Part shown: positions 12,001 through 15,000 of the stretch, piece after piece
Position numbering within the stretch: the first letter of the stretch is position 1
Layout of the letters: every line of letters begins with the position of its first letter
Source of the DNA: a virus
Lineage: Duplodnaviria; Heunggongvirae; Uroviricota; Caudoviricetes
Virus record (IMG/VR): IMGVR_UViG_2880361019_000007
Strand: one strand, 5' to 3'
DNA length: 46,314 nt
Program-made: the position numbers

Positions 12001-15000
12001 ACCGGCGACAGTCGGGGAGATAGCGCAGAATACTTACCTTTCACGCGAACGCTGCCAGTTAATACTGACCCAGCTGGTTATGGCGGATCTGGCAGACTAT
12101 CAGTTCGGTTGTTACAGACGCCTTCCGCAGTGAAGGCTTTTTTATTTGTGGTAAATGGGCGGCTGGTGGGTGTTAGGGGCACCCACCAGCCATCTGCTCA
12201 TGCGTTGGGTTCACAAGCAAACCTCAGGCCCACTGCTTTGCGCAAAAGCAGAATGAGCCTATCAGAGACAGGCTTAATGATCCATGCTTAATACTGTAAA
12301 AATATCCAGTTGTGAGTTAATCAACGCCGACTGCCTGGAATTTATCCGGTCGTTACCCGAAAATTCTGTTGACCTGATAGTCACGGACCCGCCGTACTTT
12401 AAAGTGAAGCCTGAGGGCTGGGATAACCAGTGGAAGGGCGACGATGATTACCTGAAGTGGCTGGACCAGTGTCTGGCGCAGTTCTGGCGGGTGCTGAAAC
12501 CTGCCGGAAGTCTTTACCTGTTCTGTGGTCATCGCCTGGCATCTGATATCGAAATCATGATGCGTGAACGCTTCAGTGTGCTGAACCATATTATCTGGGC
12601 GAAGCCGTCCGGACGCTGGAACTGATGCAACAAGGAAAGCCTGCGGGCGTATTTCCCCGCCACAGAGCGCATTCTGTTCGCGGAACATTATCAGGGGCCG
12701 TATCGTCCGAAAGATGCCGGGTATGCGGCGAAGGGCAGGGCACTGAAACAGCATGTGATGGCCCCGCTGATTGCTTACTTTCGTGATGCGCGCGCTGCCC
12801 TGGAGATAACGGCAAAACAGATTGCAGATGCCACAGGAAAGAAAAACATGGTGTCGCACTGGTTCAGTGCCAGTCAGTGGCAGCTACCGAACGAAAGCGA
12901 TTATCTGAAATTACAGTCGCTGTTTGCCCGGGTGGCAGAAGAGAAACATCAGCGCGGTGAACTGGAAAAGCCCCACCACCAGCTGGTGGATACGTATACG
13001 TCACTGAACCGGCAGTATGTGGAGCTGCAGAGTGAATATAAGCATCTGCGGCGGTATTTTGGTGTGACGGCGCAGGTGCCGTACACGGATGTGTGGACAC
13101 ATAAACCGGTGCAGTTCTATCCCGGGAAACATCCGTGCGAAAAACCGGCAGAAATGCTGCAGCAGATAATCAGCGCAAGCAGTCGTCCGGGTGACTTGGT
13201 TGCAGATTTTTTTATGGGCTCAGGTTCAACGGTAAAAGCGGCACTGGCGCTCGGGCGTCGTGCGATTGGCGTTGAACTGGAAACCGGACGTTTTGAGCAG
13301 ACAGTCAGGGAAGTTCAGGATTTAATAGTTTGAAACGGATGAGATTGCAGAATTAATTATGCACCGTTATTATTCTGCTCCCGGCCCTTTAGCTCAGTGG
13401 TGAGAGCGAGCGACTCATAATCGCCAGGTCGCTGGTTCAAATCCAGCAAGGGCCACCATCACATACCGCCATTAGCTCATCAGGAAAGAGCGCCAGCCTT
13501 CGAAGCTGGTTGCGCGGGGTTCAAGTCCCCGATGGCGGTCCATTATCTGCATCATGCGTTGTTAGCTCAGCCGGACAGAGCAATTGCCTTCTAAGCAATC
13601 GGTCACTGGTTCGAATCCAGTACAACGCGCCACACTTATTTTCCCTGGCTCGCTTTTGTGGGCCTTTTTTTTAAATGTCTCACAATTTAGGCGGTTGACT
13701 GTTGTCTGGTTTGCGGGGAGTTTGTTAAAAGAAACTGGCATGGTGAATCCCCCTGTGCGGAGGGGCAATCAGCGAGTAGGTATATGGGATAATCGCGGAT
13801 TCAGGTGCTGGTACTGAATTCACCGGGAGGCACCCGGCACCATGCAATGGCACATAGCGCCACTCTCCAGCCCCTCTCCGGAGGGGCTGTTTATATTGAT
13901 TTTGTCAGATGTGAGTAAACTCCTTATGGACTTTGTTGTTTTAGCCCATAAGGACATATTTGCAGAGTGCAACGGTTATTAAAGCATTCATTCAATACGT
14001 TATCTGTATTTGTAGGGCATTCCTGGCTGTTTTTGATTAAATTCCAGAATGTTTTATTGAATGGTACTACGTTGTAAATGGTTACAGGTAGCACTTTGTT
14101 ATTGAGCATGATACCTGTGTGAGTCAGTGTAAATATACTTTCAGGAGGTAAGAAAGCATCCGATTGATACCAGATTATTAATTTTATTTTACTCCATATG
14201 ACTGAAAAAGATATTCCGCATGATGGCTGGATAACTGTATCAATCACAATCCACTTCATTTAGTTTCCTTGTTTATGCCTTGCTGGTGATGTTCTGAAAA
14301 GTATAAATGATATTTTTGATTGTAAACCATAGAGCAGAATTATTTTTCTGATGTTGTTTATTGTTTATTTAAATGCAGGGTGGTTTATATCTCGTCTTGT
14401 AGTTTATCCATGCATATCTGCTTGATGATGAGGTTTTTATTTAAGGTATGGTTTTGTGTTTTTTCTGTATTACATGTCAGGTATTTTAAAGAATCATTTT
14501 TCAGATGGTGGAAAGAACCATGGCATTTAAACACTATGATGTTGTCAGGGCGGCGTCGCCGTCAGATCTTGCGGAAAAGCTGACACATAAACTGAAAGAG
14601 GGCTGGCAGCCGTTTGGTAGTCCGGTGGCCATAACCCCTTATACCCTGATGCAGGTGATTGCAGCAGAAGGTGATGTGGTCGTCAGTGGTGCAACTGAGC
14701 CGGAGTGGTACTACGTCATCGTACTGGCCGGGCAATCCAATGCCATGGCTTACGGTGAAGGGCTTCCGCTTCCGGATTCATACGATGCGCCCCATCCGCG
14801 CATTAAGCAACTGGCCCGTCGTAACACAGTGACTTCCGGTGGTGAAGTATGCGTATTTAACGACATCATTCCTGCTGACCATTGTCTGCATGATGTTCAG
14901 GATATGAGTACGATTAACCATCCCCGGGCTGACCTGAGCAAAGGGCAGTACGGCTGTGTCGGACAGGGCTTACATATTGCCAAAAAACTGCTTCCGTATA

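What the first reader, a model, noticed from the sequence alone, without database searches (positions are those of the whole stretch)
12284..13333. Methyltransferase interrupted by one in-frame TGA
Two ORF-track entries (12284..12625 and 12755..13333) are in the same frame, and the only stop between them is TGA at 12623-12625 (…SGRWN*CNKESLRAYF…). The protein has a DPPY motif (IVTDPPYF) typical of N6-A/N4-C methyltransferases. This is either a nonsense mutation, leaky UGA readthrough giving low-level enzyme, or a sequencing or assembly error.
Basis: seen in the sequence. Interest (0 to 1): 0.45.

Follow-up and report, generated by a model that had tools for sequence, protein, structure and literature searches.

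The report
Prophage M.EcoGII-type methylase gene, nonsense-mutated

Summary
Window 12284..13333 (+) is one 349-codon frame with a single internal stop, TGA at 12623-12625. The frame encodes a beta-class N6/N4 DNA methyltransferase (PF01555, E 2e-44) that is 95% identical over its full length to M.EcoGII, the characterised non-specific adenine methyltransferase of E. coli prophages. Every homologue examined has glycine at this codon (GGA or GGG), so the stop is a G340T transversion (Gly114 to stop). I found the allele only in the window's own record, Escherichia albertii 2010C-3449 (CP034212.1). It is absent from 1,814 complete E. coli records that carry the site, from the GTDB species representatives and from the JGI metagenomes, while the GGA control finds 865 exact E. 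coli records, 79 metagenome contigs and the E. albertii type strain. There is no SECIS or other recoding element, homologues have Gly rather than Cys, and the downstream fold is no better than shuffled sequence. The stop separates the DPPY catalytic motif from the FxGxG AdoMet-binding motif, so the product should be inactive. The copy carries three more private substitutions, including Gly174Glu at an invariant glycine. Broken copies of this gene are common (6 of 67), but no more so than neighbouring prophage genes. Verdict: a strain-private nonsense pseudogene. A base-call error is not excluded. Low interest.

The parts
12284..13333 (+). Interrupted gene (pseudogene) for an M.EcoGII-type beta-class N6-adenine DNA methyltransferase, 349 codons plus stop
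   Evidence: PF01555, E 2.3e-44, profile positions 1-219 of 221; 95% identity to the M.EcoGII sequence from PMC11551740 supplement file 5; the same frame is annotated as one intact CDS in RefSeq E. coli.
12623..12625 (+). In-frame TGA, from a G-to-T change at 12623 (gene nt 340): Gly114 (GGA) to stop
   Evidence: Homologues read GGA or GGG. The 61-mer with TGA has 0 exact matches in 1,814 E. coli records, against 865 when repaired to GGA. The TGA 25-mer has 0 hits in genome contigs and metagenome contigs, against 1 and 79 for GGA.
12386..12397 (+). DPPY catalytic motif (motif IV), residues 35-38, upstream of the stop
   Evidence: Read directly from the sequence. Invariant in alignment A1.
13211..13225 (+). 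FxGxG AdoMet-binding motif (motif I; FMGSG, residues 310-314), downstream of the stop and therefore missing from the 113-aa product
   Evidence: Read directly from the sequence. Invariant in A1. This segment aligns to the motif I region of solved beta-class MTases.
12803..12805 (+). Second private non-synonymous change: codon 174 GAG (Glu) where all 66 other copies have GGG (Gly). It lies downstream of the stop.
   Evidence: position 12804 (G521A). Gly is invariant in A1 and in M.EcoGII.
12755..13333 (+). Residual downstream ORF in the same frame. The first possible restarts are GTG 12755 and ATG 12758 (codons 158/159). Gene callers pick ATG 12848, giving 161 aa. It would lack residues 114-157 or more, and the DPPY half.
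   Evidence: (gene called at L004 3565-4050, which equals window 12848-13333).
10888..11709 (+). Q-type late antiterminator (PF03589) upstream. It places the methylase gene in the late operon.
   Evidence: L004 is identical to the window; RefSeq: 'antitermination protein'.
11792..11817 (+). Terminator-like GC hairpin plus T-run just downstream of Q (candidate tR'-type site)
   Evidence: This is a consensus scan only.
12120..12147 (+). Second terminator-like hairpin plus T-run, after the 65-aa ORF (11936..12133) and 137 nt before the methylase start codon
   Evidence: This is a consensus scan only.
13383..13632 (+). Three tRNA genes (CAT, TCG and TCT anticodons) directly downstream. This is the position occupied by ileZ-argN-argO and stx in Stx phages.

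Best explanation
The region is a lambdoid-prophage late-operon gene for an M.EcoGII-type, sequence-non-specific N6-adenine DNA methyltransferase. In this strain (Escherichia albertii 2010C-3449) it has been inactivated by a single G-to-T transversion that converts the conserved Gly114 codon GGA into TGA. Translation should stop after 113 residues. That product keeps the DPPY catalytic motif but lacks the central region and the C-terminal FxGxG AdoMet-binding motif, so no active enzyme is made. In intact relatives the enzyme is silent in the lysogen. It is thought to be switched on when the prophage is induced, methylating adenines in phage DNA in any context and so protecting progeny DNA from restriction. 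In this prophage that function is lost. What is shown: the stop, the gene's identity, the ancestral codon, the rarity of the allele, and the absence of recoding signals. What is inferred: loss of activity, late (Q-dependent) expression, and that the change is biological rather than a base-call error.
For: There is a single internal stop in a full-length PF01555 frame. The product is 95% identical over 349 aa to M.EcoGII. Murray et al. describe M.EcoGII as 349 aa, prophage-borne, not expressed in the lysogen, deleterious when expressed constitutively, and with a close homologue in phage 1720a-02 (PMC5778455). That phage's gene matches the window at 95.5% nt identity (H55). Homologues at 99%, 95% and 79% nt identity, and the E. 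albertii type strain, all read GRWNGCNKE. Gly114 lies in a block (residues 99-129) that is invariant across them. The TGA-bearing 61-mer has no exact match in 1,814 complete E. coli records, while the GGA-repaired 61-mer has 865. The TGA 25-mer has no match in the GTDB representatives or the JGI metagenomes, while the GGA 25-mer matches the E. albertii type strain and 79 metagenome contigs. The window is identical to CP034212.1 over 6.3 kb, which is E. albertii 2010C-3449, a PacBio genome (PMC10673567). The gene has four private substitutions against 66 other copies, including G174E at an invariant Gly downstream of the stop. That fits a real lineage history and relaxed constraint. Long structural genes elsewhere in the window are intact: gpA 661 aa, portal 530 aa, tape measure 879 aa, J 1173 aa. 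This argues against an error-ridden assembly. Other genomes carry different, independent lesions in the same gene: TGA at codon 105, TAA at codon 134, small indels and 5' truncations. So broken copies are commonplace.
Against: No reads were available, so a consensus base error at 12623 cannot be excluded. The allele is seen in one record only, which is also what an error would look like. Loss of activity is inferred from motif content and was not measured. Background near-cognate decoding of UGA (established knowledge, not tested here) would give a small amount of full-length protein with, presumably, Trp at position 114. More distant relatives tolerate other residues there: the reconstructed ancestor SUPREM reads ...PWNRQNKES.... 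Trace activity on induction is therefore conceivable.
Confidence: 0.85

Rival explanations
1. The TGA is a base-call or consensus error in the deposited assembly, and the real gene is intact (GGA).
For: The allele occurs in a single record only. The E. albertii type strain has GGA in a 99.2% identical copy.
Against: The record is a PacBio assembly. From general knowledge, consensus errors in such assemblies are overwhelmingly indels in homopolymers, not G-to-T substitutions in a mixed-sequence context (AACGGATGC). The same gene has three further private substitutions, two of them synonymous, so private point changes are expected in this lineage. The other long ORFs in the window are unbroken.
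Confidence: 0.11
2. The UGA is a programmed recoding site, either selenocysteine insertion or regulated readthrough, that yields a full-length enzyme at a controlled low level.
For: Constitutive expression of M.EcoGII is deleterious (PMC5778455), so attenuation could in principle be useful. Enterobacteria have the Sec machinery (general knowledge).
Against: Recoding sites are conserved, and this one is private to one record. Homologues have Gly here, not Cys or Sec. No SECIS or other recoding family scores near the stop even at E<=10. The 60 nt downstream fold no better than shuffles (z = -0.69). The base after the stop is U; from memory of Poole et al. 1995, UGAU is among the more efficient UGA termination contexts in E. 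coli.
Confidence: 0.02
3. The gene works as a split enzyme: the 113-aa N-terminal fragment (DPPY) and a separately initiated C-terminal fragment (FxGxG) assemble into an active methyltransferase.
For: Gene callers do call a second ORF (ATG 12848, 161 aa) with an AGGA about 9 nt upstream. Beta-class MTases act as dimers (PMC7544214). Natural split MTases exist (general knowledge, for example M.AquI).
Against: The first in-frame restart is at codon 158/159, so at least residues 114-157 would be missing. These include the invariant block CNKESLRAYFPATER.LFAEHYQGPY. The arrangement is private to one record rather than a conserved architecture. Other genomes break the gene at different places, as expected for decay rather than design.
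Confidence: 0.02

Closest known systems
M.EcoGII / M.EcoGI (E. coli O104:H4 C227-11 prophage non-specific adenine DNA/RNA methyltransferases; Murray et al. 2018, PMC5778455)
   Same: The length is the same (349 aa). Identity is 95% over the whole protein, and the first 113 residues are identical apart from an OCR slip in the held text. The motif order is the same: DPPY, then a central region, then FxGxG. The setting is the same, a lambdoid prophage.
   Different: The window's copy has a stop at codon 114 plus G174E, so it is a pseudogene and presumably makes no active enzyme. The host is E. albertii rather than E. coli. Non-specific activity was not tested for this allele.
'DNA methylase' of Stx2-converting phages and Escherichia phage 1720a-02 (e.g. 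LC567829, KF030445, AP012536)
   Same: Nucleotide identity is 94.5-95.7% over the gene. The gene sits in the same position, between the Q antiterminator and the tRNA / (stx) / nanS-like esterase / lysis block.
   Different: Those copies are intact. This prophage has no stx genes between the tRNAs and the esterase; it has an STnc100 sRNA and an IraM/PmrD-like gene there instead.
Sequence-specific beta-class amino-MTases with solved structures (M.RsrI 1eg2/1nw5, CcrM 6pbd, M.MboIIA 1g60, DpnA 5hfj; top hits 9c3u/8urk)
   Same: They share the N-terminal DPPY block and the C-terminal FxGxG block (E 1e-25 to 1e-15), and the Pfam family PF01555.
   Different: Only the two conserved blocks align. The central 115-280 region has no match in these structures. 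Scores against the curated NCBIfam equivalogs (YhdJ-like PRK11524, CcrM) are far below their cut-offs, so it is not a member of those subfamilies.
Bacterial selenoprotein genes (in-frame UGA plus SECIS, e.g. fdhF)
   Same: The only shared feature is an in-frame UGA in an enterobacterial gene.
   Different: There is no SECIS, homologues have Gly rather than Cys, and the UGA is not conserved.

Membership tests
Beta-class N6-adenine/N4-cytosine DNA methyltransferases (Pfam PF01555 N6_N4_Mtase) | Significant full-length match to the family profile | tested here: met
   Repaired frame: 152.4 bits against a cut-off of 26.7, E 2.3e-44, profile positions 1-219 of 221.
Beta-class N6-adenine/N4-cytosine DNA methyltransferases (Pfam PF01555 N6_N4_Mtase) | Beta motif order: catalytic (D/S)PP(Y/F) motif IV at the N-terminus, AdoMet-binding FxGxG motif I at the C-terminus | tested here: met
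   DPPY is at residues 35-38 and FMGSG at 310-314. The two blocks align separately to solved beta-class enzymes.
Beta-class N6-adenine/N4-cytosine DNA methyltransferases (Pfam PF01555 N6_N4_Mtase) | Uninterrupted reading frame able to produce both motifs in one polypeptide | tested here: not met
   TGA at codon 114 separates motif IV from motif I. The locus is therefore filed as a pseudogene of the family, not as a functional member.
M.EcoGII/M.EcoGI orthologue group | High full-length sequence identity to M.EcoGII and the same length (349 aa) | tested here: met
   331 of 350 aligned positions are identical (95%) to the M.EcoGII sequence held in PMC11551740 supplement file 5, which is machine-read text with a few OCR slips. 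Published STEC 'M.EcoGI/GII homologs' are 92-94% similar (PMC6602927).
M.EcoGII/M.EcoGI orthologue group | Location on a lambdoid prophage | tested here: met
   The gene lies between the Q antiterminator and the tRNA / esterase / lysis / terminase genes. PMC5778455 describes a prophage location.
M.EcoGII/M.EcoGI orthologue group | Context-independent adenine methylation of DNA and RNA | not testable with these tools
   This needs expression of the repaired and native alleles, with m6A measured by LC-MS, SMRT sequencing or restriction protection.
Selenoprotein / programmed UGA recoding | SECIS or other stimulatory RNA structure just 3' of the UGA | tested here: not met
   No Rfam hit near 12623-12700 at E<=10. 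The downstream 60 nt fold at -17.9 kcal/mol, z = -0.69 against shuffles.
Selenoprotein / programmed UGA recoding | Conservation of the UGA, or Cys in homologues at the aligned position | tested here: not met
   All homologues have Gly (GGA or GGG). The TGA allele was found in no other record.

The most novel reading that the evidence does not exclude
The most novel reading not strictly excluded is that loss or attenuation of this toxic, non-specific methylase is selected for in lysogens. On that view the UGA allele would be an adaptive knock-down, leaving only trace readthrough enzyme on induction, rather than neutral decay. The one test I could run does not support it. In 80 independent loci the methylase is broken no more often per kb (6/67, 0.086 per kb) than neighbouring prophage genes (SASA esterase 3/25, 0.065 per kb; Q 2/22, 0.11 per kb; RusA 2/28; DUF968 1/26).
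Probability: 0.04. Interest if true: 0.3.

Novelty: already known. Interest (0 to 1): 0.08.

Why it matters
It matters little beyond correct annotation. The locus should be labelled as a pseudogene of an M.EcoGII-type non-specific adenine methyltransferase. It should not be annotated as two small methyltransferase genes, and not as a selenoprotein or recoded gene. In practice, this E. albertii prophage would be predicted to release progeny DNA, if it is still inducible, without the blanket m6A protection that intact relatives are thought to confer. Methylome studies of the strain should not expect activity from this gene. There is also a caution for database users: many 113-aa 'partial' database entries identical to the truncated product are contig-end artefacts, not evidence that the stop is widespread.

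Tried and rejected
1. Selenocysteine or programmed readthrough. An Rfam scan at E<=10, a fold of the downstream 60 nt and the homologue residue at the site (Gly) were all negative.

2. 'The truncated product is widespread.' The exact 113-aa product is on record on 58 contigs in 92 blocks. Apart from CP034212.1, however, the contigs inspected simply end inside codon 114, and L005 reads GG there. This is explained by a common synonymous GGA/GGG difference between prophage alleles at the third position of that codon, where assemblies of multi-prophage genomes fork.

3. Looking up the 161-aa downstream ORF to find other TGA-114 carriers. It found only the same record. It also turned up six or seven different lesions elsewhere in the gene in other genomes. 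Two of those are NCTC long-read assemblies, at least one with many broken genes (L013), so some of the indels may be errors.

4. A first attempt to score lesions by projecting a nucleotide alignment onto the reference frame. It produced a spurious 'stop at codon 240' with compensating gaps in a divergent mosaic segment. I discarded it in favour of direct ORF tracing and tblastn.

5. Preferential inactivation of the methylase relative to its neighbours: not supported.

6. Fetching NZ_CP034212.1 from the annotated E. coli collection failed, because the record is E. albertii and is not held there.

7. Split-enzyme complementation was rejected on anatomy: the first in-frame restart is at codon 158, which would omit an invariant block.

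8. The antisense ORF 12353..12859 (168 aa) and the +2-frame ORF 12625..12786 that starts at the TGATG overlap lie inside the methylase gene, so I took them to be mechanical ORFs and did not pursue them further.

Full report
OBSERVATION. Window 12284-13333 (+) translates as 350 codons with one internal stop, TGA at 12623-12625 (...KPSGRWN*CNKESLRAYF...), followed by the terminal stop. With the stop bridged, the frame matches Pfam N6_N4_Mtase over essentially the whole profile (positions 1-219 of 221, 152 bits, E 2.3e-44). This is therefore a real interrupted gene and not a chance juxtaposition of ORFs.

WHAT THE GENE IS. The same 1,050-nt frame is present in 1,978 of 5,426 complete E. coli genomes, from above 99% down to about 79% nucleotide identity. 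RefSeq annotates it there as a single, non-pseudo CDS, 'DNA-methyltransferase'. It also occurs in Stx2-converting phages and in Escherichia phage 1720a-02, at 94.5-95.7% identity. Murray et al. (PMC5778455) describe M.EcoGII as a 349-aa beta-class enzyme on an E. coli prophage that methylates adenine in any sequence context. They report that it is not expressed in the lysogen, that it is deleterious when expressed constitutively, and that it has a very similar homologue in phage 1720a-02. The M.EcoGII sequence printed in the supplement of PMC11551740 is 95% identical to the window's product over all 349 residues. The 113 residues before the stop are identical apart from an OCR slip in the held text. 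STEC proteins at 92-94% similarity are classed in the literature as M.EcoGI/GII homologues with 'nonspecific' predicted specificity, and no methylation attributable to them was detected in cultured lysogens (PMC6602927). The window therefore carries an orthologue of M.EcoGII. DPPY (motif IV) is at residues 35-38 and FMGSG (motif I, AdoMet binding) is at residues 310-314. These two blocks align separately to solved beta-class methyltransferases.

WHAT THE STOP IS. E. coli homologues at 99%, 95% and 79% nucleotide identity all read GRWNGCNKE, with GGA or GGG (Gly) where the window has TGA. The E. albertii type strain has the same Gly. The stop is thus a single G-to-T transversion at gene position 340. 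Gly114 lies inside a block (residues 99-129) that is invariant across these sequences.

A 61-mer centred on the TGA has no exact match among the 1,814 complete E. coli records that contain the site. The same 61-mer with T changed to G has 865 exact matches. A 25-mer spanning the TGA has no match in one-genome-per-species GTDB contigs or in JGI metagenome contigs. As a positive control, the GGA version matches the E. albertii type strain NBRC 107761 and 79 metagenome contigs.

SOURCE. The window is base-for-base identical over 6.3 kb to CP034212.1. A published table lists that accession as the chromosome of Escherichia albertii 2010C-3449, a human isolate from 2010 sequenced with PacBio (PMC10673567). 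This explains why the record is absent from the E. coli collection.

A TRAP. The exact 113-aa truncated product is on record on 58 contigs in 92 blocks of the protein collection, which could be read as a widespread allele. Apart from CP034212.1, the contigs inspected end inside codon 114, and L005 reads GG there. explains why. The third position of codon 114 is a common synonymous GGA/GGG difference between prophage alleles, and it follows more than 70 identical bases. Assemblies of genomes with several lambdoid prophages therefore fork at that point. That the nonsense change hit the same codon is a coincidence.

RECODING ALTERNATIVES. No SECIS or other recoding family matches near the stop, even at E<=10. 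The 60 nt downstream fold no better than shuffled sequence (z = -0.69). Homologues have Gly rather than Cys, and the UGA is not conserved. The first in-frame restart codon is GTG/ATG at codons 158/159. Any re-initiated product would therefore lack the invariant block after residue 114 as well as the DPPY half. The ATG overlapping the stop (TGATG) opens only an out-of-frame 53-aa ORF. Programmed readthrough, selenocysteine insertion and a split enzyme are all unsupported. Only the background near-cognate leak expected at any UGA remains. That is general knowledge and was not measured here.

ERROR OR MUTATION? Without reads this cannot be settled. Three points favour a real mutation. First, the assembly is a PacBio consensus, where residual errors are mostly indels (general knowledge). 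Second, the long phage genes in the window are unbroken: terminase 661 aa, portal 530 aa, tape measure 879 aa, J 1173 aa. Third, compared with 66 colinear copies, the window's gene has four private substitutions: G340T (the stop), G521A (Gly174Glu at an otherwise invariant Gly, downstream of the stop), and two synonymous changes. A lineage with its own point changes, one of them a further damaging replacement after the stop, looks like a decaying gene rather than one stray base call. I put the error alternative at about 0.1.

HOW IT WORKS, AND NOW DOES NOT. The gene lies downstream of a Q-type antiterminator (10888..11709). Two terminator-like hairpins with T-runs (11792-11817 and 12120-12147) and a 65-aa ORF sit in between. 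It lies upstream of three tRNA genes, an STnc100 sRNA, a sialate-O-acetylesterase-like gene, the lysis genes and the morphogenesis genes. This is the position occupied in Stx phages by the methylase, tRNA and stx block. From this layout, and from the reported silence of M.EcoGII in lysogens, I infer that intact copies are transcribed only when Q antiterminates late transcription after induction, and that they methylate replicating phage DNA to blunt restriction in the next host. In this strain translation should end at residue 113. The fragment carries DPPY but not the AdoMet-binding motif, so the function is lost. This last step is inference.

IS LOSS OF THIS GENE SPECIAL? Other genomes carry independent lesions: TGA at codon 105, TAA at codon 134, 1- and 2-bp indels, and 5' truncations. 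A few of these are in long-read assemblies that have many broken genes and may be errors. Among 80 loci chosen only for containing the intact codon-114 25-mer, 60-61 copies are intact and 6-10 are broken. By the tblastn count, the methylase is disrupted in 6 of 67 copies (0.086 per kb). This is similar to its neighbours: esterase 3/25 (0.065 per kb), Q 2/22 (0.11 per kb), RusA 2/28 and DUF968 1/26. There is thus no sign of preferential loss, and the pattern is ordinary prophage decay plus assembly noise. The samples are small.

VERDICT. This is a strain-private Gly114-to-stop pseudogene of an M.EcoGII-type non-specific adenine methyltransferase in a lambdoid prophage of E. albertii. Both the gene family and the kind of event are already known. 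Interest is low.

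Noticed in passing
L005-L008 (ends of contigs), equivalent to window 12620-12625: Many draft and metagenome contigs end inside codon 114 of this gene. They yield 'partial' 113-aa database proteins identical to the window's truncated product (58 contigs, 92 blocks). The cause appears to be a common synonymous GGA/GGG difference between co-resident prophage alleles, which makes assemblies fork at that point.
   Followed up: yes
window 13709-13898 (+): Strong match to the Rfam sRNA family STnc100 (RF02076, 132 bits, E 3e-30) just downstream of the three tRNA genes. This is the slot where Stx phages carry stx.
   Followed up: no
window 13383-13458 (+): ARAGORN calls this a tRNA-Met (CAT), while RefSeq annotates the equivalent gene in E. 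coli (L001) as tRNA-Ile. That suggests an ileZ-like, lysidine-dependent tRNA. It is followed by tRNA-Arg(TCG) and tRNA-Arg(TCT), which are rare-codon tRNAs typical of Stx-type phages.
   Followed up: partly
window 12803-12805 (+): A second private, non-conservative change in the same gene (Gly174Glu) at a glycine that is invariant in all 66 other copies and in M.EcoGII. It could be a second inactivating hit.
   Followed up: partly
window 43605-45907 (-): An IS21-family element (an IstB-like ATPase of 249 aa and an rve/Mu-transposase-C protein of 513 aa) sits directly after the prophage tail-fibre gene.
   Followed up: no
L010, L011, L017; L012, L014; L013; L015; L016; L018: Independent lesions in the same methylase gene in other genomes: a 2-bp deletion after nt 511 (three loci), 5' truncation at about nt 438 (two loci), a 1-bp insertion, a 1-bp deletion, GAA-to-TAA at codon 134, and TGG-to-TGA at codon 105.
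   Followed up: partly
window 7584-8690 (+) and 2173-2694 (+): The early region encodes an HTH + Peptidase_M78 (ImmA/IrrE-like) protein and a YdaT-like protein. A CI-like HTH repressor is at 1477-1935 (-).
   Followed up: no
window 13924-14259 (-): A 111-aa ORF on the opposite strand, between the tRNA/sRNA block and the esterase gene. The equivalent gene is annotated in RefSeq as the anti-adapter protein IraM and carries a precomputed PmrD-family hit. My own Pfam scan at E<=0.001 found nothing.
   Followed up: partly
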